From: Rickettsiales bacterium
GTDB lineage: Bacteria > Pseudomonadota > Alphaproteobacteria > Rs-D84
Reading direction: 5' to 3'
Length of the DNA stretch: 48,539 nt
Assembly (NCBI GenBank): GCA_031262525.1
Contig: JAISHM010000013.1
Coordinates: forward strand, 1-48,539
A model generated the notes under the pieces. It was not told where the DNA came from, ran no database searches, and saw only the letters and a list, made by a program, of their open reading frames with translations. The position numbers and the translations under genes were made by a program. Shown piece after piece: positions 21,570 to 48,539 of the stretch. The stretch's first letter is position 1. Each line of letters starts with the position of its first letter.

Positions 21570-21603
21570 CTTACTCTCCCTGTTTTGCGCGCATTAATCA
21601 ACA

Positions 21604-35390: not shown

Positions 35391-35589
35391 TTTGTCCCCT
35401 CTTTATCATATTTTCAATTTGATGGACCAGTGCACGGTTTGCCTCTAACCCGCGCAACTGGGCGTCCGATGCGTCCGCCCCCAGAAATCTTTCAATTGTA
35501 ATTTCACGCAGGTGTTCCAGAACCACGGCACCAGCCGAGGTTCCAAAACAACGTGCATAATTTTTCTCGGTTTCTTTTATATTTTTCAT
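35383..35589 (-). CDS. Bbp19-like phage protein
   Basis: 68 aa. FGTSAGAVVLEHLREITIERFLG...LRGLEANRALVHQIENMI resembles the Bbp19 family. The start overlaps the portal stop. Confidence 0.5.
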   Translation of the reverse strand: MKNIKETEKNYARCFGTSAGAVVLEHLREITIERFLGADASDAQLRGLEANRALVHQIENMIKRGQNG

Positions 35590-36812
35590 TATAAATTTTC
35601 CTCATTTATTTTTGCAATCGGCGCGACATAGCGCAGGGTTATATCCCCATGCAAAGATACATTTTCTATCAAGCCACGACGGGACAAGATATTTAATCCG
35701 CGCTCGCACAATGGGCGTATAAACTCATTCATCAGGCGACCGTATGTCGCGCCCAGCACACGCATCATATCCGCATTGCGCGCCAAAATTTCGGTCGCGG
35801 TCATCTCTTTGTCAGAAATCATTTGCAACCTATCCGCCATCAGGGTATGTAAAATTCGCGTCCGCAAATCCGATAAAACAATTTGCGAAACATCAAAATC
35901 CGCCCCTGATTTCAATGGGGTCAGTCCCGATGAACCAACTGCCTTTGGAATAATCGCGCCCGGGGTTAAATTTATATTTGATAAATTTATTACTCCGTCG
36001 TCGTCGGCCTGCCAGATTCCGCTGACCGAAATTGTCGCGTTTTTCAGAACCAGTTCTACAACCTTATTCGCGGTTTTAATATCGGGTAAGGCCCGCAGAA
36101 CTGGACTGCGCCCATACATTTCGCCACTGGCCACCGACCAACGGAAAATAATATAAGGATTCGTTTCAAAGATACCATTTGCAACAATGTTATTTTCAAT
36201 ATCGCCGCCGCAATCTATCCATGCAACAAAATCATTTCCAATCAAGGATTGCACCAAATGCAACGGGGTAAATGGGTTGTCTTTTAACGACGCGCGTATA
36301 TTCGCGGGCGGCGTCCATATTGGATACTTTTCCATAATTTCAATCGCCGGCATAACAGATGTATGAAAAATAGCGCCGTTTGTAATTGCGATATCACGCA
36401 TTGGAATCGCGGTAAAAGAAAAGGCGCTGTCCGCGCCAATTGGATTTTCCGACATAAATAAACACGCCGTCCCCAAAACCACCAAATCCAGATAACACTG
36501 ATGAATCGCGGTGTAAAAATCCGAATTATTCAGATGTGCGCGCAGTGCAAGCGTCGCCAACGCGGCAGTGTCTGCGGGCAATAATGGATTTTCAGGCTCC
36601 AAATTTATCCACGCGGATTCTGGTGGGGTCAGCAAAGAATACATTGACGCCGCCAGATTTTCCGCCGCGTCCCCCGCGGTTGAATCAAATAAATTTGCGC
36701 AGTCGTCATCCGCCGTGGGCAGGGTAAATTTCTGACACGCGTCCCAACGCGATTCCCAAACCGCGCGCGCATCCAATGCTTTTTTATAAAGTTGTAAAAG
36801 ATTTTTATTCAT
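35589..36812 (-). CDS. phage head-to-tail connector (portal) protein, podovirus type
   Basis: 407 aa. LYKKALDARAVWESRWDACQKFTLP...LFDSTAGDAAENLAASMYSLLTPPESAW fits the Head-tail_con pattern. Confidence 0.65.
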   Translation of the reverse strand: MNKNLLQLYKKALDARAVWESRWDACQKFTLPTADDDCANLFDSTAGDAAENLAASMYSLLTPPESAWINLEPENPLLPADTAALATLALRAHLNNSDFYTAIHQCYLDLVVLGTACLFMSENPIGADSAFSFTAIPMRDIAITNGAIFHTSVMPAIEIMEKYPIWTPPANIRASLKDNPFTPLHLVQSLIGNDFVAWIDCGGDIENNIVANGIFETNPYIIFRWSVASGEMYGRSPVLRALPDIKTANKVVELVLKNATISVSGIWQADDDGVINLSNINLTPGAIIPKAVGSSGLTPLKSGADFDVSQIVLSDLRTRILHTLMADRLQMISDKEMTATEILARNADMMRVLGATYGRLMNEFIRPLCERGLNILSRRGLIENVSLHGDITLRYVAPIAKINEENL

Positions 36813-36841
36813 ACTTTTTCCTTTTTGTTTGTGATTTTTTG

Positions 36842-37672
36842 TTAAACATTAAATTCTGTCTTTGCCTGGACGGGGCGAAAAAATTGACCAGTGGCACGCA
36901 ATGCCGTCGGCGCACACCGCAACGCGCCTGCAACCGCATCCAATCCATCATCATGCCCACCCACCGACATTGGTGACCAACCCAGCATTTCCGACAACAA
37001 TGGCGTTCCGCGAACCCGCTCGTGCACCCACAATCGTCCCGTGGTCAGCAATGGTTCAATCGCGTCCAGAATTCGCGCCTCTTTACGCGTATGATTTACA
37101 ACGCGGTTTATCACAACCCCCTGCCCCAGTTTAGTCGCCGTATCGCGCATAATTTCTGGCAAAGCGTTTCCCATACCATTGACCTCTATCCCAATCACCC
37201 GCGCACCATGCACCCGCATAAAGTCCAAAACATTTTCGCACTGGGTCGCCAATGGATGTGCATCATTTTCATCAACCGATAAATATCGCACATCGTGAAT
37301 AAATGCACGCCTGTTTTTATTATCAGTGTAAAGCATTACGCAAACGCTGTTGTCATTACCATATCGCCCAGATGATGGGTCCCAATAACAGGCATAGCCA
37401 GTTATAATCCCCACTCCGTCCAATTTCGCAGTGCGCGCATCAAATTCACCATCGTAAAAAATAAGCGCCCCTGGGTCCAGGCGCGCCCGTTCTGACGCAA
37501 TATAATCCAGCATCATTTGTGATGAAAAGTGTCGCGCGCCAACGCTGTCCCGCAACGCGTCTATTTTTTCCAACGGAAAGACCGCGGGCCACGCCGATTC
37601 TCCCACCGAATTTATAATTGGCAGACGAAACAAGGCATAGCCTCGCAAAAATGATTCAGCTGATTCGTTCAT
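36842..37672 (-). pseudogene. terminase large subunit, C-terminal nuclease domain only (5'-truncated)
   Basis: 276 aa with RNase-H-like nuclease motifs (YACYWDPSSGRYGNDNSVCVML ... KEARILDAIEPLLTTGRLWV ... GGHDDGLDAVAGAL). No Walker A/B ATPase part is present. dnaB begins 97 bp upstream. Confidence 0.65.
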
Positions 37673-37768
37673 AATTTACAATTTAGAATATTGGAATTAA
37701 AAAATGCGCCACACGGCGCCCTTATTTTTTGTTGAAACTATTATATCAAATTTTGCAGAAAAAGTCAA

Positions 37769-39316
37769 TCAGAAATTATCTGGGATTTCAGAAACATCAG
37801 GCGCAGCGCCACGCATAACCGCCGGGTTTTCCCCATAATCCATATCATCATCCATTGCGAACCCGTCCAAATCTTCGAACAAGGAATAATCCCCGCTGAA
37901 TTTCGTCCGTATTGTGTCAGGTTTTCCATGACGATTTTTACCAATAATTAAATCCGCCTTGCCACGCGCAGCCTCTAACCTTTTGCGCCAATTTTCCGCC
38001 TTGTTAGTTGTGAATTGTTCGCTATGGTCGCCAGTATTTTCCGATGGGTCACGTCCTTGCAAATAATACTCTTCCCGATAGGTAAACATAACAATGTCCG
38101 CGTCCTGTTCAATAGAACCCGACTCGCGAAGGTCCGATAACAACGGACGCTTATCATCGCGCATTTCCACAGCGCGCGAAAGTTGCGACAATGCGATTAC
38201 CGGCGCATCCAACTCTTTCGCCAACATTTTCAGTCCCCGTGTGATTTCAGATATTTCATTCACACGGTTATCGTTTTTACGCAACGAACTCGACTGCATC
38301 AGTTGTAAATAGTCAATTACTATCAGTGCAATCCCACCATATTTGCGCGCAATTCGCCGCGCGCGCGCGCGCATTCCCGCAACACCAATCCCAGGCGTAT
38401 CGTCAATCAGTAATGGAACACTGGACAACGCGTCGCTGTATTGAGATAACCGCAAAAATTCTTGGTCATTTAATGACCCATTGCGCATAGAACCCGCCGG
38501 AATTTTTGCCTGGGACGACAACACGCGCGCCGCCAACTGGGACGCAGACATTTCCAGCGAGAAAAACACCACAGCGCCCGTAAATTTTTTATTCGCACGT
38601 CCCGACAAAATCGCATTCGCCGCATTAAACGCGATATTCAACGCAACGGTTGTCTTTCCCATTGCCGGTCGTCCCGCAATAATTACCAAATCCGATTTAT
38701 GCAATCCACTGATAGACTTATCCAAATCACGCAATCCCGTGGTCAAACCCGATAATTTTCCATCAGCCTTATACGCGATTTCCGCCTCTTCCAGCGCGGT
38801 CCGCAACGCAGCGTCCAACGATGTTGCACCGCGTTCCACGTTCCCCGTCGCCGACAGGTCAAATAATTTCTGTTCTGCTGCCTCTATCTGTTTATCGGCT
38901 GGGTTATCCATATCTTCTATAAATGCGCCATCAACTATATCCTGACCGACGCTAATCAGTTGCCGACGCAATGCATTGTCATAAACAATCTTTGCATAAC
39001 TTTCTACATTATAAACAGATGTGCCCGCCGCCGCCAATTCAGATAAATACTCGGTCCCGCCAACCGATTCCAACACACCCTGTTGTTCCAGATAATTTTT
39101 CGCAGTAATTACATCAAACGGGATACCCGCCGCAAATTGTTTTTCCGCCAAACGAAAAATTTCCGTATGCGCAGGATGTGAAAAATGCGACGCAGATAAA
39201 AAGTCAGAAACTTTTTCCAGCGCGCGATTATTCATCAAAACCGCCGCCAGAACGGCCTGTTCGGCCTCTAAATTAGTTGGTAAAGTTTTTTGATTAAATT
39301 CCATTGCGATAAACAT
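37769..39316 (-). CDS. dnaB: replicative DNA helicase DnaB
   Basis: NLEAEQAVLAAVL, Walker A GRPAMGKTT, and IVIDYLQLM. There is an insertion before GKNRHG and an acidic C-terminal extension. An alternative ATG lies at 39304. Confidence 0.92.
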   Translation of the reverse strand: MFIAMEFNQKTLPTNLEAEQAVLAAVLMNNRALEKVSDFLSASHFSHPAHTEIFRLAEKQFAAGIPFDVITAKNYLEQQGVLESVGGTEYLSELAAAGTSVYNVESYAKIVYDNALRRQLISVGQDIVDGAFIEDMDNPADKQIEAAEQKLFDLSATGNVERGATSLDAALRTALEEAEIAYKADGKLSGLTTGLRDLDKSISGLHKSDLVIIAGRPAMGKTTVALNIAFNAANAILSGRANKKFTGAVVFFSLEMSASQLAARVLSSQAKIPAGSMRNGSLNDQEFLRLSQYSDALSSVPLLIDDTPGIGVAGMRARARRIARKYGGIALIVIDYLQLMQSSSLRKNDNRVNEISEITRGLKMLAKELDAPVIALSQLSRAVEMRDDKRPLLSDLRESGSIEQDADIVMFTYREEYYLQGRDPSENTGDHSEQFTTNKAENWRKRLEAARGKADLIIGKNRHGKPDTIRTKFSGDYSLFEDLDGFAMDDDMDYGENPAVMRGAAPDVSEIPDNF

Positions 39317-39417
39317 ACAACAAGAATTTTATTTTTCAATCTTTTTTTCTTGCAATTGTCATAAAAAATGACTACCCTTTTTGTCAAGCGAACCAAAATA
39401 AATAAAGAGGTTATAAA

Positions 39418-40434
39418 ATGGCATGGGAAGAAATCTGTTTTCCAAATAATTTACGAAATTTGCGTCTGTCGCGTGGAATAAAAATGACCGAGGTTGCAAA
39501 GAAAACCGGTGTATCCCTGTCCGCAATGAGCAAAGTTGAAAAAGGTGTCCGCAGATTAAAACAAAATCAAATTCTGAAAGTGTGTGATATCTTGCAATGT
39601 AAATTATCAGATATATTTATCAAGGATACAGACGACAAGGCCGAAGAATGGAATGCCGAAATTCGCCGTCGCCTTACCGAAAACGAAGGCTCGGGGCTAA
39701 AAATTTTTGGCGCTGGGATTCACGCGCTGCGTCGCGCAATAAAAAAGACTATTGCGAATGCGGCACACGATGCAAATATGACTTTGTCTGTGTATCATAA
39801 AATTGAAACCGGTCAGCGCGAGATATTTGAAAATGAATTGGAACCATTGGCGCGTGCGTTGGGTCACAGCGTGGAAAGTATGTTCCAAACAATTGCTGAT
39901 TTATATAACGCTGGGAAACTGGATAAACAAATTGACCGGTCTGTATCGCGCGTACGTAATGCGTTGCGTGCAGATATTGTTGAAAAAGGCGCGGATATTG
40001 CTGGAAAACTTTACGGCGCTGATGTTTATGCGGCGGTGCGTAAAAATATGGTCCCTGTTTATGGGCACACATCGGGTAAGCATATCAACTTTATAAAGTC
40101 CGACGAGAAAATGTTACAAATAAAAAATCCAAAAGAATCGGGCGATGTTTATGCTGTCCCGGCGCCAGTGGGTCGTTTGGGGCAGTTTATGCCGAAAAAC
40201 GCGTATCTGTTTGCAGACGCTTCACAGATACCGGTGGCGGGCGATTTGGCGGTATTACTAGATGCCGATTACGCAACGATAAAACCAGATTCATTGAACA
40301 AGGCCCAGGTGGTAATGCTGGATACAGACCAAAATGGGAACTTAGTCGGGCGTATGGCGGATCCGGATGAAACAATCACAATAAAAAATCCGCGTGGTAA
40401 ATTACACAAAATTATTCAGATTGTCATAGATTAA
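39418..40434 (+). CDS. XRE-family regulator with two HTH domains and an S24/LexA-like C-terminal domain lacking the catalytic Ser
   Basis: HTH1 is LRNLRLSRGIKMTEVAKKTGVSLSAMSKVEKG. HTH2 is ALRRAIKKTIANAAHDANMTLSVYHKIETG. The C-terminal GQFMPKN...AGDLAVLLD stands in place of GDSM.P...GD.v.vd. Confidence 0.6.
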   Translation: MAWEEICFPNNLRNLRLSRGIKMTEVAKKTGVSLSAMSKVEKGVRRLKQNQILKVCDILQCKLSDIFIKDTDDKAEEWNAEIRRRLTENEGSGLKIFGAGIHALRRAIKKTIANAAHDANMTLSVYHKIETGQREIFENELEPLARALGHSVESMFQTIADLYNAGKLDKQIDRSVSRVRNALRADIVEKGADIAGKLYGADVYAAVRKNMVPVYGHTSGKHINFIKSDEKMLQIKNPKESGDVYAVPAPVGRLGQFMPKNAYLFADASQIPVAGDLAVLLDADYATIKPDSLNKAQVVMLDTDQNGNLVGRMADPDETITIKNPRGKLHKIIQIVID

Positions 40435-40445
40435 AAAGGGACAAA

Positions 40446-41099
40446 GTGAGAGAGAATAAACCTATTACAGAAAAAACATCTATTACGGCGCAACGATTGT
40501 TGAACCTGTATCGCCAGGCGCATACAATTGACGGCGGTTGGGCGGTTGTGAATAATATATTTGTTCGCGATGCGAATGCGGGGGTTATTGCTGAACTGAT
40601 TAAACTGCCTAATGGTAATAAGTTATCAGAACACATTAAAAATTTACGCGATGGGAAAACCCCAATGAATGGGATAGAGCGTGAGTTGATGCCATACGGA
40701 GGTATGATGGATTTACGCCTGCGCGTGGAACAAATTTCTGATTCGGATTTACAAACTTTGTCAGAAGCATTGTCGGAATTTCAATCTGACCCAGAACATA
40801 TAAACCAAATTCGCGCATTACCTTTTGTCCAATCGTTTGGGGACAAATGGATTGTAGGGGTCCGTGCTGCATTGACTGGTCGCGATGATTTATTGGAACA
40901 ATGGAATCATGTTGCAACTGCGGCGCGCGCGTATGAGTTATGGAATCACGCGTATGCGATAATGACACCACCTATTTCAGAGCGGGCGCGCGCCCAGATA
41001 CAGGCCGAATTATCAGAGTTTGAAACTTATCTACCGATGTTTGGTGAAGACGGGGAAAAACTACTGGTAAAATTACGCACATTTATCAGCAGTATGTAA
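40446..41099 (+). CDS. hypothetical protein (GTG start)
   Basis: 217-aa ORF starting 11 nt after the regulator gene. No motif recognised. Confidence 0.45.
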   Translation: MRENKPITEKTSITAQRLLNLYRQAHTIDGGWAVVNNIFVRDANAGVIAELIKLPNGNKLSEHIKNLRDGKTPMNGIERELMPYGGMMDLRLRVEQISDSDLQTLSEALSEFQSDPEHINQIRALPFVQSFGDKWIVGVRAALTGRDDLLEQWNHVATAARAYELWNHAYAIMTPPISERARAQIQAELSEFETYLPMFGEDGEKLLVKLRTFISSM

Positions 41100-41285
41100 A
41101 GCGAAAAATAAATGATAACGACTCTTTAATTCCGCGCGTAAAAAACATTATCCACCACAATCCATCCACGCCGATTCCGATTTCTCCAAAATCTACGCTC
41201 AACCGATTGAATCTGTCGAGCTATCCACCTGAGCTGAGATTACGATTTTTACGGATTGAATTTCCAAACTTATATGTGTAATAAT

Positions 41286-41705
41286 ATGAGTATGAAACAA
41301 GCCATTATTGTTTTATTGTTTTTACTTTCAACAAATTGTTATGCAAGTAATGATTGCAGTATTTATGCATACTTGCAGAACTTTTCAGAAAATATCGCAA
41401 CCATTCAAACTAAACGATACATTATTCGTATAGATGAAATGCAAAATGGCGATTTACGATATGTGTCTTGGAAAAATAAAACCATAACAGATGAACCAGA
41501 TTTAATTTTATACGATGGCGTATATGAACATGAGGGGAGTTGGCCCAATGTTTCGTATACTTTCCGTAAAGATGATTATACATATAAGATATATAGAAAT
41601 GGGGTGCAGGACGAATTTGACAATCCTTATAAATATAATTTAATAATTTATCGAGGAACACATAGAATAATGAATTATGGCGGCAATGATTATAAATGTA
41701 ATTAG
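41286..41705 (+). CDS. small secreted protein
   Basis: Signal peptide MSMKQAIIVLLFLLSTNCYA. AT-rich. The 3' end overlaps the convergent lysozyme-fusion gene by 4 nt. Confidence 0.5.
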   Translation: MSMKQAIIVLLFLLSTNCYASNDCSIYAYLQNFSENIATIQTKRYIIRIDEMQNGDLRYVSWKNKTITDEPDLILYDGVYEHEGSWPNVSYTFRKDDYTYKIYRNGVQDEFDNPYKYNLIIYRGTHRIMNYGGNDYKCN

Positions 41706-42772
41706 TTCCTATCATTAAATAGATTCCATTCAGCATCTCTGCGATTATTCAATCCTCTAGATACAGAGCCACCAGATTTATTCCATGCTTTCCAAGCAGA
41801 TTCTATTGTAGGATATTTAGTGCTAGAAAAATTTGAGTCATTTAAATATTGTAAAAGAGTTGAATTTTCAAAAGCATTTGGACCAATATTATATGCCAAC
41901 GCAACAAGAGCATCAAATTGAGACTGGGTAAGTTCCGCTTTTACATCAGATTTTACAATATTCTCAAATCTCGCGACATCTTGTGCTAATAATCTTTCCG
42001 CATGCTTTTCAGTAATACCATTACTAAACTTTTCACCAGGTTTTAATAAATGTCCATACCCAATGGTTGCTCCCTTTGGTAAATTATTTTTATCACTGAC
42101 AGGTTTTCCAGTTTTATCATCATAAATCACATGTTTGCCATTTTCTGTAACTTTGCCTTCTTTCTGTTTTAGAAAGTTCAATCCTTTTTTACTTATATGA
42201 TGTGGTTTGTCTTTTGTATTTTCATCTTCATCATAAGGTTCTGTCCAACATCTACAATTTGGATGTGGTAAATCTGGTATTTCGTCCTCTGTAAAAATCT
42301 GTCCTGCTAAATCTGCACATTCATCACAGGCATCGTCTTCGGCACACCATATATATTTTGAATGGTATTCGTCATTAAATTCATCAGTTTCCGGTGCTTC
42401 CCAAGAATAAATATCTATATTTTCGGTTCTTATATTTCCATTTTCATCTATAACTTTGATTATTTCTGTGTCAATTTCTGGCTCTGTATTTATTATAACG
42501 CCATCGGGCAAATCTTCATTAACTTCATCAAGCCATTCATCGATAGCATCCATTACCTCATCATTATTATCTTCAATCTCATCACAAATTTTTCTAAAAG
42601 TTGCTTCATCTACAACATCTGAATCAATAGTTTTTCCAGATGCGTCATACTGAGCCGCACCATGATATCTAGCATTAAAATAATTCCCAACTTGTTTTGA
42701 TGTAAAAGAATCTTTAATCGCATATCCAGCAGATTTCATCAATTTCTCAATACCTTTTAATAATTTAGCCAT
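41702..42772 (-). CDS. fusion protein: phage MuF/SPP1-gp7-like minor head domain + GH24 lysozyme
   Basis: PDLPHPNCRCWTEPY is the MuF-like HpnCRC motif. The C-terminal half LKQKEGKV...DDKTGKPV...ATIGYGHLL...SQFDALVALAYNIG is a T4/lambda-type lysozyme pattern. The ATG at 42772 has an AAAGGA RBS. Confidence 0.7.
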   Translation of the reverse strand: MAKLLKGIEKLMKSAGYAIKDSFTSKQVGNYFNARYHGAAQYDASGKTIDSDVVDEATFRKICDEIEDNNDEVMDAIDEWLDEVNEDLPDGVIINTEPEIDTEIIKVIDENGNIRTENIDIYSWEAPETDEFNDEYHSKYIWCAEDDACDECADLAGQIFTEDEIPDLPHPNCRCWTEPYDEDENTKDKPHHISKKGLNFLKQKEGKVTENGKHVIYDDKTGKPVSDKNNLPKGATIGYGHLLKPGEKFSNGITEKHAERLLAQDVARFENIVKSDVKAELTQSQFDALVALAYNIGPNAFENSTLLQYLNDSNFSSTKYPTIESAWKAWNKSGGSVSRGLNNRRDAEWNLFNDRN

Positions 42773-42907
42773 AATTTTTCCTTTGGTTTTGATAAATAAA
42801 AAAGCCGTGCGAAATGCACAGCGGTTATAAAAAAAACGGCGGATAAAATCCACCTTGTTTAATAAAATTATTATATCAGAAAATATGTTAAAAATCAATA
42901 AGAATCT

Positions 42908-42983
42908 TGGCGTGCCCGACAGAACTCGAACCTATAATCTATACTTTAGAAGAGTATTGCCATATCCGTTAGGCCACGGGCAC
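42908..42983 (-). tRNA. tRNA-Arg (anticodon UCU)
   Basis: 76-nt cloverleaf on the minus strand. Acceptor GTGCCCG/CGGGCAC, anticodon arm ATACT-CTTCTAA-AGTAT, T loop TTCGAGT, encoded CCA. Confidence 0.85.
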
Positions 42984-43140: not shown

Positions 43141-44010
43141 TTATATTGGTTGTTCAATTCCTTGATTGAAATCTTTTTGTATATTATCCATTTCCCAAGT
43201 TTTGTTTATTTTAGTATTTATAGAATTAAATATTTTTATATGAAATTTCCGCTCTTTATATATTTTACGACTTGTATTAAAAATAAGAGCAAAATATCTT
43301 GAAACGAATAATAATTCTAAATCTACCATATTTTTTACATCTTTTGGATTTGCAGGTTTGTGTCGTTTTAACGCCTGAATTACAGATTGATTTGGTGTAG
43401 CAAATTGAAGCGATACATTAGAGTGATTATTACGTGCTATTGTTCCTATAAAATATTTTATTTTATTAAATGGTTTTTTGTGGCTAGCTAACAAATCAAC
43501 ATCTCTAATTATATATGTCAAAATACGTGCATACTTTTTATCTTCTTTTGATAATGTAGTATAAGATTTATCAAGGTTTAATTCTTGGTCAACAAGTTCC
43601 TTCTCGGTTTTTATATAATTTTGTACAATAATGGGATCATCAGAGCTATGGTGTAGAATAGGAATTGTTATAAGCGGATTTATAATTCCGACATTATGCA
43701 ATATCTTAACACTCGTTACACCGTGTGGTATTTTATTTAACTCTGTTCCTGTTTCTATGAAACGACCAATGTCATGATATAAAAATATGATCTTTCCTAA
43801 TTCTAATAATTTGTCTTTATTTAAATATTCTAATTCTGAATCACTAGAATTTTTTATTATTTTTATACCATATTTCTTAGCGCGAAGACAATGCCATTTA
43901 TTATATTTATAACCCCTGATAAGTTTGTGCTTATCTGCAAATTTGAAAGCATGTATAATTGCCTTATGATAAATACGAAAAAAATTCCAAAGCGCTATGT
44001 AATTTTTCAT
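43141..44010 (-). CDS. HD-domain phosphohydrolase
   Basis: 289 aa with H...LYHDIGRF (the HD dyad), IPHGVTS, ILHHSSD and IIRDVD. Confidence 0.75.
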   Translation of the reverse strand: MKNYIALWNFFRIYHKAIIHAFKFADKHKLIRGYKYNKWHCLRAKKYGIKIIKNSSDSELEYLNKDKLLELGKIIFLYHDIGRFIETGTELNKIPHGVTSVKILHNVGIINPLITIPILHHSSDDPIIVQNYIKTEKELVDQELNLDKSYTTLSKEDKKYARILTYIIRDVDLLASHKKPFNKIKYFIGTIARNNHSNVSLQFATPNQSVIQALKRHKPANPKDVKNMVDLELLFVSRYFALIFNTSRKIYKERKFHIKIFNSINTKINKTWEMDNIQKDFNQGIEQPI

Positions 44011-44351
44011 TGATTATTACGTATAATAATATGGTTAAACCATTTCTCTTGAAAAGAGATTTGTTTTTCTATGGTATCATTGTCAATACTTACGCCATCT
44101 GGCACAACAATAAGTTTGTCATCGTTATCATTTGTTCGATGAATTACAGCAATACAACGTCCTGTAAATTCATTAAGCGGAACTCTCACTCCAAGAACAT
44201 ATACATCAAGTTCTTCACCATCACCAGATATGGTATTTGGAATAAAACCGTAATTGGTTTCATATATATAACCCCATTTAGGATGTTTTGTACCAAGCGG
44301 TCTATCCATTTTTACTTTTACGATTTTTCCTATATAATTTTCTGTTATCAT
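44007..44351 (-). CDS. inorganic pyrophosphatase-family (family I-like) small protein
   Basis: VKMDRPLGTKHPKWGYIYETNYGFIPNTISGDGEELDVYVLG is a near match to the D-x-D-P-x-D-V PPase signature (DGEELDV). The ATG at 44351 has a GGAG RBS. The stop overlaps the HD gene start. Confidence 0.65.
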   Translation of the reverse strand: MITENYIGKIVKVKMDRPLGTKHPKWGYIYETNYGFIPNTISGDGEELDVYVLGVRVPLNEFTGRCIAVIHRTNDNDDKLIVVPDGVSIDNDTIEKQISFQEKWFNHIIIRNNQ

Positions 44352-44413
44352 CTTTATAACTCCAACATGATTATTATAACATATTGTATAGTGTTTGTTG
44401 TAAACAAAATTTA

Positions 44414-44441
44414 TTGACATATAAAAAATTGGTGTTATTAT
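44414..44441 (+). promoter_or_regulatory. promoter of the radical SAM operon (extended -10, apparently leaderless)
   Basis: TTGACA (44414-44419), a 16-nt spacer ending in TGT, then TATTAT (44436-44441). The ATG at 44451 lies 9 nt downstream and no SD is visible. Confidence 0.5.
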
Positions 44442-44450
44442 ATTTCCGAT

Positions 44451-46040
44451 ATGGTATATTTTATAAAAAACAATAATTTTATAATTCTAACAACTCCGTC
44501 CCCAAAAACGCATCGAACCGCGGAAGAAAATCTTGGGCTGGGGTATCTCGCCGCGATTTTAAGAAATAATGGTTATAATGTAAAAATTATAGATGGGTGG
44601 TTATCTGGTATGACACCATTTGCACTTGCTGAAAACCTCCTACAAGAACAAACTCCTTTATTCATCGGATTTTCTGCATACCAATCAAATATAGCGCAAG
44701 CAATTGAAACTTTATCTATTATAAAAAAGTCCAAAAATATACCATGTATTGTGGGCGGGTTTGGTCCAACTTTTGCACCAGAACAATTTTTGCAAAACGG
44801 ATTTGATTTTGTAATTCGTGGCGAAGCAGAAGAATCCATTTTGGATTTAGCAAATTATTTCAATATAGAAAGTGACTTATCAAAAATTTCTGGATTGTCA
44901 TACATACAGAATGATAAAATTATAAATAATCCAATAACACCAATAACAATTCAGTTAAATGATTTGCCATATCCCGCACGTGATACGATGCATATGGCGA
45001 TGCAACGCAGAACACCCGTTCATTTATCAACGGCGCGTGGCTGTTCCGGCAGTTGTGCTTTTTGCAGTATTGCATCATTTTTTAGGTTATCAAAAACTTG
45101 CAAATGGCGAGGAGAAGATATTTCGCGAATAATTTCAGAATTGAAATATCTTGAAAATATGGGTGTTAAACACATTAAAATCATAGACGATTCTTTCATA
45201 GATGGCACCCGCAATGAAAATTGGTGTAAAGAATTTGCAGAACAAATCAGAGCAAACAATATAAACATTCATTTCCGTGGTTCTATTCGTGCCGATAAAG
45301 TATCGCCAGATATAATTAAAAACCTTAAAGAATCGGGATTTTTCTCGTTTTCTTGTGGCATAGAAAATTTTGCGACAACTGCATTAAAACGAATGAGCAA
45401 ATCCGCATCTGTTAAGCAGAATAATTATGCACTGAATATTTTTCGCGATAATGATATTTACGTCCAGGCAGGACAGATATTATTTGACCCATATACTACC
45501 ATGTCAGAATTATGGGAAAATTATCATTATATGCAACATTATGATTGGATTATCAGCAAAGGTATTTTTACAGAAATGTTTGCGGCATCTGGCACGCCTT
45601 TTCAGAACAAAATAAGCAAACAAAATGCGTCAGTATCAAAAAATACAAATCTTGGAAATTATTCTTATAAAATTCAAGATAAACAGGCGCAGCAAGTATA
45701 TAATGCTTTGAAATTGTGGCATACCAGCAATATGCGATTATATGACAAAGCAATTGACCCATTGACATCACCAAAAGCATTAACCCCAGATGAAATGAAA
45801 TTATTTTATAATGAATATATGAAAATACATCATAAAGATTTGGAAGTTATGCGAAGTATTTTAGATATAGTTGAGTATGCAGGCAATAATACAGAAGTTA
45901 TGCAATGCGTATCAGATGCACTTGAAAATAGTAAAATTATGTTTGGTCAAATAGAAAGTAATATAGATAACGCATATAAAAAATGTGGCATTATTTATGA
46001 TGCTTGTGTCAATCCTTTTATAAAAGTGGGGCAAAGATGA
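44451..46040 (+). CDS. cobalamin-binding (class B) radical SAM enzyme
   Basis: N-terminal B12-binding Rossmann pattern (NLGLGYLAAILRNNGYNVKIIDGW ... FIGFSAY ... PCIVGGFGPTF ... DFVIRGEAEESILDL). The CxxxCxxC cluster is ARGCSGSCAFCS. Confidence 0.85.
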   Translation: MVYFIKNNNFIILTTPSPKTHRTAEENLGLGYLAAILRNNGYNVKIIDGWLSGMTPFALAENLLQEQTPLFIGFSAYQSNIAQAIETLSIIKKSKNIPCIVGGFGPTFAPEQFLQNGFDFVIRGEAEESILDLANYFNIESDLSKISGLSYIQNDKIINNPITPITIQLNDLPYPARDTMHMAMQRRTPVHLSTARGCSGSCAFCSIASFFRLSKTCKWRGEDISRIISELKYLENMGVKHIKIIDDSFIDGTRNENWCKEFAEQIRANNINIHFRGSIRADKVSPDIIKNLKESGFFSFSCGIENFATTALKRMSKSASVKQNNYALNIFRDNDIYVQAGQILFDPYTTMSELWENYHYMQHYDWIISKGIFTEMFAASGTPFQNKISKQNASVSKNTNLGNYSYKIQDKQAQQVYNALKLWHTSNMRLYDKAIDPLTSPKALTPDEMKLFYNEYMKIHHKDLEVMRSILDIVEYAGNNTEVMQCVSDALENSKIMFGQIESNIDNAYKKCGIIYDACVNPFIKVGQR

Positions 46041-47230
46041 CTTATAATCCATCAGAACATTATATAAAACGTGGTCCGACAAATGAATTTGGGAATGCAC
46101 CAGAAACGCCGTCAAAAATTCGAAATGTCGGTTGGACACTTGGAAATTATTGTCCGCATAAATGTAAACATTGTTATTCGGCATCTGCACGGGCTCGTGG
46201 CGCAAATATGACAATAGAAATAATAGACAGAATAATTGAACAACTCTCAGAGAATAATATAGAAACGGTAAATCTTGGCGGTAATGAACCAATTTTTACA
46301 AATGGAACAAATCCAAACGATTCTTTGCTTCCATATATCATTGAAAAATTATCAGAAAAATATATAGATGTTGGGATTACAACAAGTGGCGACACATTGC
46401 TTTATTTATATAAAAATAAGTATGATATTTTCTATAAAATAAATGATTTTGATATCAGTTTGGACTCGCCATTCAAAGATGAGCATAACAAAAATCGCGG
46501 TGATGATTTATATGATGATGCATTGAAATGCCTAGAAATATGTAAGCAGGAAAATAAACCGCACAGCATAATTATGACGGGTATGAATTGGAATTTTACA
46601 GAACGACATTTAACAGAATTGATGAGATTGTGTAAAGAATATGATGCATTCATCAGAATAAATACTATGAAACCGATGACTTCTGTTCAAATGAAACAAA
46701 CTATGCCGTATCAACAATTTTATGACGGATTTAATTTTCTTATGCAAAATTGCTATACAATTGAAAATGGGGAAACAATTTTGCGTGATTTATCAGACAC
46801 GCAAAATACTAAAAGATGTCCGTGTGGAATATCCAGTTTTCGTATTCATTCTATAACACCAGATGGTAAAATTTTTGTATCGCCTTGTGTTTATATGCAT
46901 GACTATAAATCGTCTTTGGATTTACTGACCAATGATTTATCAGATATTATAAATTCTGATGAATTCAAAGTTTTCAGACAAAGAAATGCAAATCCACAAA
47001 TGATAAAAGGTTGTGAAAATTGTGATAAGGCAAATATCTGTGGCGGTGGTTGCGCCGCACGCGCATATTTGCATAATGCAATAAATACAGGCGAAAAGTC
47101 GTTTTTATGTAAAGACCCGTATTGCCCCAAAGATTATAATTCTGATAAGATAAAAACACTGTATCAAGATTCAGAAAACAGATTGGTTCATATGGATTAT
47201 CTGTGTACTTGGATAGGAAAAGTAAAATGA
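46037..47230 (+). CDS. radical SAM enzyme with a C-terminal SPASM domain
   Basis: CxxxCxxC (GNYCPHKCKHCYS). The SPASM cysteines are CPCGISSF...GKIFVSPC and GCENCDKANICGGGCAARAY. The ATG at 46037 overlaps the upstream stop (ATGA). Confidence 0.85.
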   Translation: MTYNPSEHYIKRGPTNEFGNAPETPSKIRNVGWTLGNYCPHKCKHCYSASARARGANMTIEIIDRIIEQLSENNIETVNLGGNEPIFTNGTNPNDSLLPYIIEKLSEKYIDVGITTSGDTLLYLYKNKYDIFYKINDFDISLDSPFKDEHNKNRGDDLYDDALKCLEICKQENKPHSIIMTGMNWNFTERHLTELMRLCKEYDAFIRINTMKPMTSVQMKQTMPYQQFYDGFNFLMQNCYTIENGETILRDLSDTQNTKRCPCGISSFRIHSITPDGKIFVSPCVYMHDYKSSLDLLTNDLSDIINSDEFKVFRQRNANPQMIKGCENCDKANICGGGCAARAYLHNAINTGEKSFLCKDPYCPKDYNSDKIKTLYQDSENRLVHMDYLCTWIGKVK

Positions 47231-48168
47231 TAGATTACCATTTGCATTATACTGGTTCGTTGCCACATTCGTATGTATTTCATAATTTGACGATACAAAA
47301 ACCAGAATTTTTAGTAAACAATAATATAAATTCTGCTGCTGATTTATCTGTATGGATTAACCGTCAATTTAGTAAAAATTATATTCAAAACAGAGTTGTT
47401 TTTAACAAGATTTATGAATTATTCCAATCTGTTTCTAAACCCAAAGACGAGGCGTCCATTGTTGATACATATAAAAATGGAACTTATGAAATTGCAAACT
47501 GTGTTGCAAACAATGGTATAAAGAAATATGCAATTGTTGCGGGACCTACAACCGAAATAAAGACAACAATTGACCGATATGTTGGTATAATTCATGGTTT
47601 TAAAAAATCCGAAATAAAATACGCGAATATTTTTGGAAAAATTATAATAACTTTTATTCATGGTAATGACGGTAAATTCAAGAACCTATCCGATAAACTA
47701 TTGTGCGATATTTTTGATTGTATTAAAAACGGAACTTTCGCGAACAGAATATTTGGTTTTGATATATCGGGTTATGAATATCCAGATAAAGAATTATTAT
47801 CTGATAATATAAATCTTATAAAAAAAATCATAAATATAAATGATAAATTCGGATTAAATCTTGATATCGGATTACATGCTGGGGAAATTATAACCACCAC
47901 ACAAGATGACAGAAATTATGATGATTATTTTACAGAACTATCAAAATTAAATATAAATACAATTCGTCATGGGACATATTTATGGCATAATAACAAACGC
48001 AATATTTTGCAAAAATTTGCGGGGCGGACAACATTTGATTTATCGTCAAAATCCAGCGTGTTGCTTACACCCGCAAAAACAATACCATTAAATTTATTTA
48101 ATGAACTGGGCATAGATTACAGATTGGGACGTGATGACCCATCAATTCTTAATAATTGGCAAAGATAA
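47227..48168 (+). CDS. adenosine/AMP-deaminase-family metallohydrolase
   Basis: All four family motifs are in order: DYHLHYTGSL (HxH), FGFDISGYE, GLHAGE, IRHGTYL, then GRDDPS. The ATG at 47227 overlaps the upstream stop (ATGA). Confidence 0.75.
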   Translation: MIDYHLHYTGSLPHSYVFHNLTIQKPEFLVNNNINSAADLSVWINRQFSKNYIQNRVVFNKIYELFQSVSKPKDEASIVDTYKNGTYEIANCVANNGIKKYAIVAGPTTEIKTTIDRYVGIIHGFKKSEIKYANIFGKIIITFIHGNDGKFKNLSDKLLCDIFDCIKNGTFANRIFGFDISGYEYPDKELLSDNINLIKKIININDKFGLNLDIGLHAGEIITTTQDDRNYDDYFTELSKLNINTIRHGTYLWHNNKRNILQKFAGRTTFDLSSKSSVLLTPAKTIPLNLFNELGIDYRLGRDDPSILNNWQR

Positions 48169-48169
48169 T

Positions 48170-48539
48170 CTATCTCTTATGCTGAATAATTTCGGATATT
48201 ACAAATTCTGATACATCTTGTTTTGTCATATTTGTAGTATCCAAAATCAACAAACCTTCGCGTTTTGCAATCTGGCGTAATTTCTGATTGAACGGAATTT
48301 GAAATTCTGGTCTTTCCCATGGGGAGCGCTTATCTTTTGTGCGTTCAACCATTCTTTGTTCGCGCTTTTCGTCCGATACATCAAGTAAAATGCCAAAATC
48401 TGGTTTTGATAATCCAGAATAATTTACATGTGTTTCCGAACGCAGCGCGGATTCATTCACATTATTTAAATTGTCCAAAGTATAATTAAAAGCCTCTGTC
48501 GAATACAGATATCGTTCTAAAAATACATTCTTGCCAGAA
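48170..48539 (-). CDS. thymidylate/deoxynucleotide-kinase-like P-loop kinase (5' part beyond the window)
   Basis: The frame is open to the window edge. ...GKNVFLERYLYSTEAF (the DRY..S..AY region) and KPDFGILLDVSDEKREQRM (the PD..i.LD...e....R region) are present. The P-loop itself is not inside the window. Confidence 0.55.
   Translation of the reverse strand, partial: SGKNVFLERYLYSTEAFNYTLDNLNNVNESALRSETHVNYSGLSKPDFGILLDVSDEKREQRMVERTKDKRSPWERPEFQIPFNQKLRQIAKREGLLILDTTNMTKQDVSEFVISEIIQHKR

What the first reader, a model, noticed from the sequence alone, without database searches (positions are those of the whole stretch)
43141..48539. Compact nucleotide-tailoring cluster: HD + PPase-like / B12-radical SAM + SPASM-radical SAM + adenosine-deaminase-like / dNMP-kinase-like, with no precursor peptide
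Six tightly packed genes form three units:
- HD phosphohydrolase and a pyrophosphatase-like gene, overlapping on the minus strand.
- A divergent, translationally coupled trio on the plus strand (ATGA overlaps at 46037 and 47227): a cobalamin-binding radical SAM, a SPASM radical SAM and an adenosine-deaminase-family hydrolase with all metal and catalytic motifs intact.
- A convergent TMP/dNMP-kinase-like gene running off the window.

Four of the six products are enzyme types that act on nucleoside phosphates. There is no room for a small precursor ORF between the genes, so a RiPP role is unlikely.

The only well-known pairing of an HD phosphohydrolase with a B12-dependent radical SAM is OxsA/OxsB. 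That pair ring-contracts 2'-deoxyadenosine phosphates to the antiviral oxetanocin A. Twitch/SPASM enzymes such as BtrN oxidise sugar hydroxyls. Prokaryotic viperins, which make chain-terminator nucleotides, are often flanked by nucleotide kinases.

My inference is that this is an undescribed pathway making a modified purine nucleoside or nucleotide, either as an antiviral or antimetabolite or for nucleic-acid hypermodification. The kinase, PPase and HD enzymes would set the phosphorylation state or provide self-protection. The host also encodes a PduO adenosyltransferase and a B12-dependent RNR (21027-23469), so cobalamin is available. The region is visibly more AT-rich than the core genes and abuts tRNA-Arg, which is consistent with horizontal acquisition.
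Basis: partly seen in the sequence, partly recalled or inferred. Interest (0 to 1): 0.85.

Follow-up and report, generated by a model that had tools for sequence, protein, structure and literature searches.

The report
Uncharacterised two-radical-SAM nucleotide-tailoring island
A horizontally acquired gene island pairs a vitamin-B12-dependent radical enzyme, whose nearest solved relative makes the antiviral nucleoside oxetanocin, with a second radical enzyme and nucleotide kinases, phosphatases and a deaminase, and it most likely makes a still-unknown nucleotide analogue.

Summary
The six genes are real and tightly packed as described. The island is compositionally foreign: 31% GC against 40% for the rest of the window.

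In 84 related loci from at least six phyla, the conserved core is not the six-gene set. It is the cobalamin radical SAM (rSAM), present in 84/84 loci, plus the SPASM rSAM (77/84) and a truncated pyrophosphatase-like protein (51/84). Around this core sit interchangeable nucleotide and nucleoside enzymes. No conserved small ORF was found, so a peptide-maturase (RiPP) role is unlikely.

By sequence profile (E 1e-31) and by predicted fold (TM 0.76), the nearest solved structure to the B12 enzyme is OxsB. But it is only 19-27% identical, lacks OxsB's N-terminal domain, and scores equally against the BchE model. It is a distinct, uncharacterised family.

The HD protein belongs to a rare HD family and is not OxsA-like. 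It recurs with the system in only one other contig.

A closer precedent than OxsA/OxsB is AlsA/AlsB, two radical SAM enzymes that together make albucidin from dAMP.

Alphaproteobacterial relatives sit beside different tRNA genes, and some flanks carry Abi or MADS defence genes.

This is a new variant of nucleoside-analogue-making radical SAM systems. Product and role are unproven.

The parts
42908..42983 (-). tRNA-Arg(TCT), left border of the island
   Evidence: ARAGORN. Relatives of the cluster lie next to tRNA-Val, tRNA-Ser(gga), tRNA-Ser(tga) and tRNA-Glu.
43141..44010 (-). HD-superfamily phosphohydrolase of a rare family (289 aa). It is a lineage-specific accessory, not part of the conserved core.
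   Evidence: - Pfam HD 15.5 bits, below cut-off.
- The family alignment has invariant H40, H79, D80, H96 and H121, and 7 of 8 members hit PF01966.
- Only 8 relatives among 1.84 billion representatives.
- No OxsA/YfbR similarity.
- The closest homologue lies in L092, in the order Hsp70-like > PPase-like > HD > Tmk.
44007..44351 (-). Truncated family-I pyrophosphatase-like protein (about 114 aa; the ORF is open up to 44420). It is the third core component.
   Evidence: - PF00719 40.4 bits over profile positions 33-102 of 153.
- Solved PPases hit at 2.8e-7.
- Present in 51 of 84 loci at 44-63% identity.
- Start inferred from orthologues and a GGAG motif.
44414..44441 (+). Best sigma-70-like promoter match of the region (TTGACA-16-TG-TATTAT), ending 10 nt before the B12-rSAM ATG.
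   Evidence: Consensus scan, 11 of 12 matches. This is a match only; the number of such sites in the region is not above the shuffled expectation.
44451..46040 (+). Cobalamin-binding radical SAM enzyme (529 aa), distantly OxsB-like. Core component.
   Evidence: - Pfam B12-binding + Radical_SAM.
- Invariant C198-x3-C202-x2-C205.
- 658 homologues.
- Profile against PDB: OxsB 1.1e-31.
- AF2 model pLDDT 88, with Foldseek top hit OxsB at TM 0.76.
46037..47230 (+). SPASM-domain radical SAM enzyme (397 aa), translationally coupled to the B12 enzyme. Core component.
   Evidence: - Pfam Radical_SAM, Fer4_12 and SPASM.
- Invariant C40, C44, C47 plus SPASM cysteines C327, C330, C336, C340 and others.
- Adjacent to the B12 enzyme in 77 of 84 loci.
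- No close solved structure.
47227..48168 (+). Adenosine-deaminase-family metallohydrolase (313 aa). Accessory of the alphaproteobacterial lineage.
   Evidence: - Alignment A2 shows the invariant residues.
- PDB ADA hits, best to Plasmodium ADA.
- Orthologues hit PF00962.
- Present in 11 of 84 loci.
48170..48539 (-). dTMP-kinase-family (d)NMP kinase, C-terminal 122 aa only. The gene runs off the window.
   Evidence: - PF02223 31.4 bits and TIGR00041 34 bits.
- Full-length orthologues of about 202-226 aa carry a P-loop in L002-L012.
- A Tmk-like cluster is present in 29 loci.

Best explanation
**What it is.** This is a mobile, tRNA-flanked island encoding an uncharacterised radical pathway that tailors a (deoxy)nucleotide, most likely an adenine one.

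**Proposed mechanism (inferred).**
[quoted passage not shown] Together they carry out two successive radical steps on the sugar of a nucleoside phosphate. The precedent is AlsB (ring contraction) plus AlsA (one-carbon removal), which turn dAMP into albucidin phosphate.
- A truncated pyrophosphatase-like protein is the third core member. Here it is joined by an HD phosphohydrolase (NUDIX or histidine phosphatase in other lineages) and a Tmk-family kinase. These would set the phosphorylation state of substrate and product.
- The adenosine-deaminase-like enzyme would either convert the adenine analogue to its hypoxanthine form or detoxify it, or it would remove 5'-deoxyadenosine, the inhibitory by-product of the two radical enzymes.
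- The product is most likely kept inside the cell as a phosphorylated chain-terminating or polymerase-poisoning analogue used in conflict with phages (viperin-like logic). In some other lineages the same core looks re-used to make an exported nucleoside antibiotic.

**Shown:** gene content, conservation of the core, the nucleotide-enzyme neighbourhood, fold similarity to OxsB, intact catalytic motifs, horizontal acquisition.

**Inferred:** substrate, chemistry, product and biological role.
For: **Core conservation**
- B12-rSAM is in 84/84 loci, SPASM-rSAM in 77/84 and PPase-like in 51/84.
- The scan of 185,579 species genomes found 137 stretches encoding a relative. The loci kept come from Alphaproteobacteria, Clostridia, Bacilli/Mollicutes, Actinomycetes, CPR bacteria and an archaeon.

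**Accessory genes differ by lineage but stay within nucleotide metabolism**
- Tmk-like, guanylate-kinase-like, HprK-like and APH-like kinases.
- NUDIX and histidine phosphatase.
- MTAP-like phosphorylase and nucleoside deoxyribosyltransferase-like protein.
- ADA-like deaminase or DadD/MtaD-like amidohydrolase.

**Similarity to OxsB**
- OxsB is the best solved match by profile (1.1e-31, next hit 7e-18).
- It is also the best by fold (TM 0.76 against 0.62 or less for TsrM, CysS, TokK, MgmA and AprD4).
- Precedents: OxsA/OxsB and AlsA/AlsB (PMC7074753, PMC13331322).

**No peptide substrate**
- No conserved small ORF was found.

**Mobility**
- Low GC.
- Different tRNA neighbours in relatives.
- An integrase and AbiE next to the cluster in L002.
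- The core occurs on plasmids.

**Conflict context**
- Weak similarity of the B12-rSAM and the kinase to the two components of PADLOC candidate PDC-M51, and of a related locus's kinase (L045) to viperin-associated kinase VakA. PDC systems are untested candidates (bioRxiv 10.1101/2024.01.29.577857).
- AbiD, AbiE, MADS and AriA-like genes occur among the variable flanks.
- HelD, an RNA-polymerase-rescue motor, sits next to the core in 25 of 49 full loci, in two different gene orders.

**Cofactor supply**
- Cobalamin-using genes are present in the host.
Against: - No biochemical data exist for any member.
- The B12 enzyme is only 19-27% identical to OxsB-clade proteins, lacks OxsB domain I, and scores as well against the BchE model (120 bits). 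OxsB-type chemistry is therefore not implied.
- The partner rSAM next to a closer OxsB homologue (L090) is unrelated to the SPASM enzyme here.
- Bradyrhizobium and some actinomycete loci carry the rSAM pair without recognisable nucleotide enzymes.
- The deaminase, phosphorylase and amidohydrolase genes could simply be 5'-deoxyadenosine disposal and say nothing about the substrate.
- The defence context was not tested against a base rate, and PADLOC models include generic domains.
- Some loci look like classical biosynthetic clusters: MFS exporter, AMP-binding enzyme, APH-like phosphotransferase.
- The right-hand end of the island is missing from the window.
Confidence: 0.6

Rival explanations
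1. The core makes a secreted nucleoside antibiotic or antimetabolite for competition between microbes, as with oxetanocin and albucidin. The phosphohydrolases strip phosphates before export. The kinase and deaminase protect the producer.
For: - Enterococcus plasmid pM190262 carries B12-rSAM + rSAM + PPase-like + a large AMP-binding protein + an MFS transporter.
- The S. clavuligerus plasmid and Nocardia loci carry an APH-like phosphotransferase and adenylating enzymes.
- Phosphatases are common partners: PPase-like, NUDIX, histidine phosphatase, HD.
- OxsA plays exactly this role (PMC13331322).
Against: - No exporter is seen in the window or in the conserved gene sets of the Alphaproteobacteria, Clostridia or Bacilli architectures.
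- Up to three P-loop kinases per locus argue for a phosphorylated end product.
- The organisms are mostly small-genome gut bacteria.
- Part of the window's island is unseen.
Confidence: 0.22
2. The pathway serves ordinary metabolism: cofactor or quinone biosynthesis, or salvage. The adenosine-type enzymes process an adenosyl adduct or 5'-deoxyadenosine, as in the futalosine route to menaquinone, or as in cobamide lower-ligand synthesis.
For: - The B12 enzyme scores about equally against BchE, BzaD and other non-nucleotide B12-rSAM models.
- The amidohydrolase partner scores against aminofutalosine and 5'-deoxyadenosine deaminase models, and the phosphorylase against MTAP models.
- The best solved ADA matches are Plasmodium enzymes. 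From my own knowledge, these also accept 5'-methylthioadenosine.
Against: - Distribution is patchy: 137 matching stretches in a scan of 185,579 species genomes.
- The island is foreign in GC and adjacent to a tRNA, and the core is carried on plasmids.
- All NCBIfam hits are far below cut-off.
- Kinases of the dNMP type, HelD and NUDIX do not fit a cofactor pathway.
Confidence: 0.1
3. The genes hypermodify the host's own DNA or RNA through the nucleotide pool. Kinases bring a modified dNMP to the triphosphate, and the HD, NUDIX and PPase enzymes deplete the canonical counterpart, as in phage Z-genome or hydroxymethyl-pyrimidine systems.
For: - The combination of a Tmk-like kinase with HD, NUDIX and PPase-type NTP hydrolases resembles phage pool-editing modules. 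This comparison rests on my own knowledge of the PurZ/DatZ/MazZ system.
- A helicase-family protein is frequently adjacent.
Against: - The family was not found in 2.9 million viral contigs, and only one weak partial hit (23% identity) appeared in 50,697 phage records.
- No polymerase, transglycosylase or DNA-binding modification enzyme is in the conserved sets.
- The helicase is HelD, an RNA-polymerase recycling factor, not a DNA-modification component.
Confidence: 0.06
4. The two radical SAM enzymes are a RiPP or protein maturase pair, and the nucleotide enzymes are unrelated neighbours.
For: The SPASM enzyme's best (sub-threshold) NCBIfam hits are peptide maturases such as MftC and CbpB, and the B12 enzyme also hits RiPP methyltransferase models weakly.
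Against: - No small ORF is conserved across more than 5 closely related loci within 6.5 kb of the core.
- No protease, leader-binding (RRE) protein or ABC exporter is in the conserved sets.
- Nucleotide enzymes recur in four different gene orders.
- All maturase hits lie far below family cut-offs (66 bits against 265).
Confidence: 0.03

Closest known systems
AlsA/AlsB (AlbA/AlbB), albucidin biosynthesis in Streptomyces albus subsp. chlorinus
   Same: - A cobalamin-dependent rSAM and a second rSAM are encoded side by side. Together they are necessary and sufficient to remodel the sugar of a nucleotide, dAMP (PMC7074753, PMC13331322).
- A thymidylate kinase gene lies nearby in the alb region (PMC7074753, Table 1).
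- There is no peptide substrate.
   Different: - AlsB is reported to have OxsB's four domains. The window enzyme lacks the N-terminal domain and is only 22% identical to an actinomycete OxsB-like protein.
- Gene order differs: alb runs rSAM then B12, while here it is B12 then SPASM.
- The alb operon has a ribonucleotide reductase and no PPase-like gene.
- AlsA and AlsB sequences could not be obtained, so the direct comparison was not done.
OxsA/OxsB, oxetanocin A biosynthesis in Bacillus megaterium
   Same: - OxsB is the nearest solved structure by profile and by fold.
- The window, like the oxs cluster, has an HD phosphohydrolase gene beside the B12-rSAM.
- Genuine OxsB-like loci in metagenomes also carry NUDIX genes, as do the alphaproteobacterial relatives of the window.
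   Different: - Identity is 19-27%, there is no domain I, and the BchE model scores equally.
- The HD protein here is not YfbR/OxsA-like and is absent from almost all related loci.
- A SPASM rSAM and a PPase-like protein are obligatory partners here and absent from the oxs cluster.
Prokaryotic viperins (pVips) with associated nucleotide kinases
   Same: The logic is the same: an rSAM enzyme acting on a nucleotide, flanked by Tmk-like kinases, in mobile or defence contexts. The SPASM enzyme and a related locus's kinase (L045) give weak hits to the pVip and VakA models.
   Different: The hits cover only the generic rSAM core (34-39 bits). pVips are single, cobalamin-independent enzymes without a SPASM domain. 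Here two rSAMs and cobalamin are involved.
PADLOC candidate system PDC-M51 (B12-type rSAM + kinase; untested, found by guilt-by-embedding)
   Same: Both its components have a homologue in the window: PDC-M51A 4.5e-12 and PDC-M51B 1.8e-7. The candidate list was derived from genes embedded in BREX, DISARM or type I RM systems (bioRxiv 10.1101/2024.01.29.577857).
   Different: - Scores are low (43 and 29 bits) and cover only part of a 420-position model.
- PDC-M51 has two components, with no SPASM rSAM or PPase-like protein.
- It has never been tested experimentally.

Membership tests
OxsB/AlsB-type cobalamin radical SAM (oxetane nucleoside synthases) | Rossmann-type B12-binding domain followed by a radical SAM core with CX3CX2C | tested here: met
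   PF02310 64 bits and PF04055 48 bits. C198, C202 and C205 are invariant in 14 homologues.
OxsB/AlsB-type cobalamin radical SAM (oxetane nucleoside synthases) | Overall fold closest to OxsB, including the C-terminal helical domain | tested here: met
   AF2 model pLDDT 88. Foldseek top hit 5UL4, E 1.3e-25, TM 0.76; other B12-rSAMs score 0.62 or less. Profile hit 1.1e-31.
OxsB/AlsB-type cobalamin radical SAM (oxetane nucleoside synthases) | Four-domain architecture with the N-terminal domain I (OxsB 744 aa; AlsB reported to have the same four domains) | tested here: not met
   The protein is 529 aa. Its alignment to OxsB starts at OxsB residue 137 and query residue 27. The B12 domain begins at about residue 10.
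OxsB/AlsB-type cobalamin radical SAM (oxetane nucleoside synthases) | Orthologue-level sequence similarity and specific affinity to the OxsB clade over other B12-rSAM families | tested here: not met
   26% identity to P0122 and 22% to P0124. The NCBIfam BchE model scores 120 bits, similar to OxsB. Closer OxsB homologues exist in other gene contexts.
OxsB/AlsB-type cobalamin radical SAM (oxetane nucleoside synthases) | Cognate partner: a YfbR-like HD phosphohydrolase (OxsA) or the AlsA radical SAM | tested here: inconclusive
   An HD gene is adjacent, but it is not YfbR/OxsA-like and is not conserved. A second rSAM is always adjacent, but it is unrelated to the rSAM next to an OxsB-clade gene in L090.
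OxsB/AlsB-type cobalamin radical SAM (oxetane nucleoside synthases) | Ring contraction of 2'-deoxyadenosine phosphates | not testable with these tools
   Needs anaerobic enzyme assays.
SPASM-domain radical SAM enzymes | CX3CX2C cluster plus a C-terminal cysteine-rich SPASM domain (CX2CX5CX3C and flanking cysteines) | tested here: met
   PF13186 28.5 bits (cut-off 21.5) and TIGR04085 37 bits (cut-off 27). C40, C44, C47, C262, C264, C285, C327, C330, C336, C340 and C364 are invariant.
RiPP maturase systems | A conserved precursor peptide gene near the maturase | tested here: not met
   Clustering 754 intergenic small ORFs from 76 loci gave no family present in more than 5 closely related loci. 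Window intergenic gaps are 0-99 nt.
Adenosine/AMP deaminase family (PF00962) | Metal ligands HxH, H of HAGE and D of DD/DN; catalytic E and H | tested here: met
   H5, H7, H217, E220, H248 and D303 are invariant in 8 orthologues. Profile hits 27 solved structures, almost all adenosine/AMP deaminases, best 7.5e-12. The window protein alone has no Pfam hit, but orthologue L004 hits PF00962 at 49.8 bits (cut-off 27).
Family I inorganic pyrophosphatase (PF00719) | Full-length (~170 aa) OB-fold with the complete set of acidic and basic active-site residues | tested here: inconclusive
   Scores 40.4 bits (cut-off 23.5) but covers only profile positions 33-102 of 153. The protein is about 114 aa. The DGEELD and DxDDK acidic motifs are conserved, and the C-terminal third of the fold is missing. 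Substrate unknown.
HD-domain phosphohydrolase superfamily (PF01966) | H...HD...H...D metal-binding pattern in an all-helical fold | tested here: met
   H40, H79, D80, H96 and H121 are invariant, and the RDxD motif is present in the seven full-length members. 7 of 8 family members hit PF01966, best 2.4e-12. The model is all-helical. The window protein alone is below the Pfam cut-off, and no significant structural neighbour was found.
dTMP kinase family (PF02223) | P-loop, LID and nucleotide-binding regions over ~200 aa | tested here: inconclusive
   Only the C-terminal 122 aa are in the window (31.4 bits, cut-off 27). Orthologues at 49-66% identity are 202-226 aa and start with a GxxxxGKT P-loop. 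The phosphate acceptor is unknown.
Prokaryotic viperin (pVip) | Viperin-type rSAM with the C-terminal NTP-binding extension; produces ddhNTP | tested here: not met
   Only 34 bits to the PADLOC pVip models, over the generic rSAM core (residues 32-229). The protein has a SPASM domain instead.
PADLOC PDC-M51 candidate defence system | Both component HMMs matched at family level | tested here: inconclusive
   Both are matched, but weakly: 43.5 and 29.1 bits in the window, and 49 and 30 bits in a Clostridia relative. These are homologous enzyme types, probably not the same family.

The most novel reading that the evidence does not exclude
The B12-rSAM + SPASM-rSAM + PPase-like core is a widespread cobalamin-dependent counterpart of viperin. 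It would convert a cellular adenine (deoxy)nucleotide into a sugar-remodelled analogue, possibly oxetane or another strained ring. Island-encoded kinases would raise this to the triphosphate, which would poison phage polymerases. Host enzymes would be protected by the HD, NUDIX or PPase hydrolases, by deamination and, in Firmicutes, by a dedicated HelD that frees stalled RNA polymerase. This would be a new family of natural antiviral nucleotides and a new immune mechanism.
Probability: 0.3. Interest if true: 0.9.

Novelty: new variant of a known kind. Interest (0 to 1): 0.72.

Why it matters
- According to PMC7074753 and PMC13331322, oxetanocin A and albucidin are the only two known natural oxetane nucleosides, and both come from OxsB-type cobalamin radical SAM enzymes.
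- This family is their nearest uncharacterised structural relative. It always comes with a second radical enzyme, and it is present in over a hundred species, including human and animal gut bacteria.
- If it acts on nucleotides as the neighbourhood indicates, it should yield new radical sugar chemistry and a new natural nucleoside or nucleotide analogue. Such compounds are a proven source of antiviral and anticancer drugs.
- It may also be a cobalamin-dependent parallel to viperin immunity.
- The recurrent HelD partner offers a testable link between nucleotide analogues and rescue of stalled RNA polymerase.

Tried and rejected
1. **Extending the contig.** The B12 protein is found only on the window's own contig and on a 3.9-kb contig that ends inside the SPASM gene. 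The rest of the kinase and anything beyond stay unseen.
2. **Phage origin.** There is no relative in IMG/VR, and only one weak partial hit in GenBank phages. Rejected.
3. **Obtaining AlsA/AlsB.** The two Liu-lab papers are not held. A search with an OxsB fragment found OxsB-clade proteins, but none could be tied to the albucidin producer. The Actinomadura homologue is not on record for context.
4. **OxsA likeness of the HD protein.** Tested by phmmer, pairwise BLAST against an OxsA-like HD from L088, a family profile against PDB and a fold search. All were negative beyond superfamily level.
5. **HD homologues by word-indexed search.** None were found. The exhaustive search found only 8.
6. **PADLOC membership.** Only weak hits.
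7. **Literature.** Searches for PDC-M51, for combinations of rSAM, deaminase, kinase and defence, and for oxetanocin with defence found no description of this system. Ophion, an rSAM defence system, is unrelated in architecture.
8. **Precursor peptide.** None found.
9. **Promoter and terminator scan.** Not above the shuffled expectation. Only the single 11-of-12 site is reported, as a match.

Full report
**Observation**

The six ORFs are present as described. The three ATGA start/stop overlaps (44007-44010 on the minus strand, 46037-40, 47227-30) and the one-base convergent junction at 48168/48170 were read directly.

Pfam and NCBIfam confirm the following:
- a B12-binding + radical SAM protein (44451-46040);
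- a radical SAM + SPASM protein (46037-47230);
- a partial family-I pyrophosphatase match (44007-44420 ORF);
- the C-terminal half of a dTMP-kinase-family protein that runs off the window.

Two calls needed family-level support.
- **ADA-like protein.** It has no Pfam hit of its own. Its orthologues hit PF00962, a profile of eight orthologues hits solved adenosine deaminases at 7.5e-12, and H5, H7, H217, E220, H248 and D303 are invariant.
- **HD protein.** It scores below threshold alone. It belongs to a small family with an invariant H..HD..H..H pattern, and 7 of 8 members hit PF01966.

The PPase-like gene probably starts at 44351. Orthologues are 112-117 aa and GGAG lies 8 nt upstream. That leaves a 99-nt divergent control region holding the best promoter-like match in the area.

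The island is 31.2% GC against 40.2% for the rest. No equally long stretch of the rest is as low, and GC3 is 17-30% against 39-48%. tRNA-Arg(TCT) lies at 42908-42983. Beyond it are phage-type genes: a T7-like portal, a terminase fragment, DnaB, an HTH regulator and a lysozyme. The class II RNR-like gene and the PduO-type adenosyltransferase at 21027-23469 are confirmed.

**Is the gene set conserved?**

The B12 enzyme has 658 homologues at E ≤ 1e-10, at 43-67% identity among the 120 listed. A scan of one genome per species found 137 stretches encoding a relative. Eighty were fetched, from Alphaproteobacteria (gut 'Candidatus Enterousia'), Clostridia, Bacilli/Mollicutes, Actinomycetes, Saccharibacteria, Moranbacteria and a Woesearchaeote.

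tblastn of the six window proteins against all 84 loci held at that point (L001-L084) gave these counts:

| Protein | Loci with a match |
|---|---|
| B12-rSAM | 84 |
| SPASM-rSAM | 77 (mostly absent where the contig is cut) |
| PPase-like | 51 (44-63% identity) |
| ADA-like | 11 |
| Tmk | 9 (29 loci by clustering) |
| HD | 2 (L001, which repeats part of the window, and a decayed 64-aa remnant in L004) |

So the conserved unit is the rSAM pair plus the small PPase-like protein, not the six genes.

Four gene orders recur:
- **A, Alphaproteobacteria, closest to the window:** NUDIX > B12 > SPASM > ADA-like > Tmk (opposite strand) > Hsp70/YegD-like.
- **B, Clostridia:** histidine phosphatase > SPASM > B12 > methyltransferase > unknown > Tmk-like > second kinase-like; then, on the opposite strand, guanylate-kinase-like and PPase-like; then HelD.
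- **C, Bacilli/Mollicutes:** LysR > divergent rSAM > MTAP-like phosphorylase > deoxyribosyltransferase-like > HprK-like > B12 > PPase-like > HelD.
- **D:** HprK-like > B12 > SPASM > PPase-like > DadD/MtaD-like amidohydrolase.

Among 49 loci with at least 4 kb on each side, 48 have the second rSAM, 38 a kinase, 38 a phosphohydrolase, 32 an adenine-nucleoside-type enzyme and 25 HelD. Five loci have the pair alone: Bradyrhizobium, a Pseudonocardiaceae MAG and Paenibacillus. No small ORF is conserved near the core.

**What are the core enzymes?**

No NCBIfam model comes near its cut-off for either rSAM, so neither belongs to a curated family.

*B12 enzyme*
- The family profile's best solved match is OxsB (1.1e-31; next 7e-18).
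- An AlphaFold model (pLDDT 88) matches OxsB best: TM 0.76 against 0.62 or less for TsrM, CysS, TokK, MgmA and AprD4.
- Identity is only 19-27%, and OxsB's N-terminal domain is missing.
- The BchE model scores as well as OxsB.
- Closer OxsB relatives exist elsewhere with their own partners: a YfbR-like HD + NUDIX, a pentapeptide-repeat protein, or a different rSAM.
- I therefore file it as a distinct family with an OxsB-like fold.

*SPASM enzyme*
- It has a full cysteine complement.
- No close solved relative was found.
- It is unrelated to the rSAM beside an OxsB-clade gene in L090.

*PPase-like protein*
- It keeps the acidic metal-binding motifs but lacks the C-terminal third of the fold.
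- Its substrate may not be pyrophosphate.

**The HD gene**

It has no homologue in a word-indexed search of 5.8 billion proteins, and only eight in an exhaustive search of 1.84 billion representatives. It shows no similarity to OxsA/YfbR-type proteins by sequence, profile or fold.

Its closest relative (47%) lies in the operon Hsp70-like > PPase-like > HD > Tmk-like (L092). It is therefore a real but rare accessory of this system. A more distant relative sits between an unannotated 475-aa gene (it reads like a GT4-type glycosyltransferase; no family search was run) and an ADA-like gene, a few genes from an AAA_15 + RloB pair.

**Known precedents**

- OxsB with OxsA converts dATP, dADP or dAMP towards oxetanocin A.
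- AlsB with a second rSAM, AlsA, converts dAMP to albucidin phosphate. Those two genes are necessary and sufficient, and a thymidylate kinase gene lies nearby (PMC7074753; PMC13331322).
- The AlsA/AlsB pair is the closest functional precedent for 'B12-rSAM + second rSAM acting on a nucleotide'. Membership could not be tested because the sequences were not obtainable.
- PADLOC lists an untested two-gene candidate, PDC-M51. Both its components match the window's B12-rSAM and kinase only weakly. PDC systems were derived by guilt-by-embedding (bioRxiv 10.1101/2024.01.29.577857).

**Mobility and context**

- Alphaproteobacterial relatives lie beside different tRNA genes (Val, Ser-gga, Ser-tga, Glu), which argues for repeated insertion.
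- L002 has an integrase, AbiEii and DUF4917 next to the cluster.
- Among 150 variable flanking proteins, several hit AbiD, AbiE, MADS, AriA and candidate defence models. No base rate was measured.
- The core also occurs on an Enterococcus conjugative plasmid with an AMP-binding protein and an MFS transporter, and on a Streptomyces clavuligerus plasmid with an APH-like phosphotransferase.
- It was not found in viral collections.

**Mechanism proposed**

Shown:
- a mobile island with an OxsB-fold cobalamin rSAM coupled to a SPASM rSAM and a PPase-like protein;
- surrounding nucleotide kinases, phosphohydrolases and adenine-nucleoside enzymes;
- intact catalytic motifs;
- cobalamin-using genes in the host.

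Inferred:
- the two rSAMs perform successive radical steps on the sugar of an adenine (deoxy)nucleotide;
- kinases and hydrolases set the phosphorylation state;
- the ADA-like enzyme tailors or detoxifies the product, or removes 5'-deoxyadenosine;
- the product acts as a polymerase-directed analogue.

The recurrent HelD partner fits protection of host RNA polymerase from a chain terminator. I favour an intracellular antiviral role for the window's version: several kinases, no exporter, island context. An exported antibiotic is the main rival. Ordinary metabolism, nucleic-acid hypermodification and RiPP maturation are less likely, for the reasons given under the rival explanations.

**Verdict**

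The 'nucleotide-tailoring, horizontally acquired, no peptide' reading holds and is strengthened. The HD/OxsA pairing and the six-gene unit do not hold.
- The system is uncharacterised and is best described as a new variant of the nucleoside-analogue-making radical SAM systems.

Noticed in passing
L064:9999-12176 and 24 other related loci (e.g. L018, L043, L069): A HelD-type RNA-polymerase recycling motor (NF041464, 392 bits) lies next to the B12-rSAM/PPase-like genes in 25 of 49 full loci, in two different gene orders. Some loci have a second copy upstream. It could be a self-resistance factor against a transcription-blocking product.
   Followed up: partly
L004:7248-7324, L006:5511-5601, L007:6929-7018, L009:7302-7393, L011:5086-5160; window 42908-42983: The alphaproteobacterial versions of the cluster sit 0.2-2.5 kb from tRNA genes of different identity (Val, Ser-gga, Ser-tga, Glu, Arg). 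This suggests repeated tRNA-targeted insertion.
   Followed up: partly
window 35589-42898: Phage-type genes lie on the other side of tRNA-Arg: a T7-like head-tail connector (275 bits), a terminase RNaseH-like fragment, a DnaB helicase, a double-HTH regulator, and a 398-aa protein with a C-terminal phage lysozyme domain. The lysozyme gene has very low GC3 (0.18), like the island.
   Followed up: partly
L004:11767-11958: A decayed remnant of the HD gene (45% identity over ~64 aa, not called as a gene) lies between the ADA-like and PPase-like genes of the closest complete relative. The HD gene has therefore been lost there.
   Followed up: yes
L093:6570-9855 (also L094, L095): A distant relative of the HD protein (29% by phmmer, 28% by BLAST) lies between an unannotated 475-aa gene and an ADA-family gene, a few genes from an AAA_15 + RloB pair. 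The 475-aa protein reads like a GT4-type glycosyltransferase, but no family search was run. HD + ADA-like may form a module of its own without radical SAM enzymes.
   Followed up: no
L088:378-3634 and L089: Gut-metagenome contigs carry a genuine OxsB-like gene (43% identical to OxsB over the 364-residue fragment searched) preceded by a YfbR/OxsA-like HD gene split into two ORFs, with NUDIX genes after it. Another OxsB-like gene (P0125) sits near a pentapeptide-repeat protein. From my own knowledge, this resembles the resistance gene of the oxetanocin cluster. Oxetanocin-type clusters may be more widespread than the two known producers.
   Followed up: no
window 44414-44451: The best sigma-70-like match of the region (TTGACA-16-TG-TATTAT) ends only 10 nt before the B12-rSAM ATG. 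No Shine-Dalgarno motif lies between them, so the operon may be translated from a leaderless or near-leaderless mRNA.
   Followed up: no
L007:12378-13664 and 12 other loci; L092:1526-2854: A 425-446-aa Hsp70/YegD-like ATPase with no substrate-binding domain accompanies the core in Alphaproteobacteria, a Gammaproteobacterium, Magnetococcales, Hoeflea, a Saccharibacterium and an archaeon. It probably lies just beyond the window's right end. Its role is unexplained; a cofactor-activating ATPase is one idea.
   Followed up: no
window 21027-23469: The host carries a monomeric class II (adenosylcobalamin) ribonucleoside-triphosphate-reductase-like gene (1L1L, 3.4e-28) next to a PduO/MMAB-type corrinoid adenosyltransferase. 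The albucidin operon contains a gene of the same reductase type (albC), but here it is 20 kb away and has host-like GC3 (0.43).
   Followed up: partly
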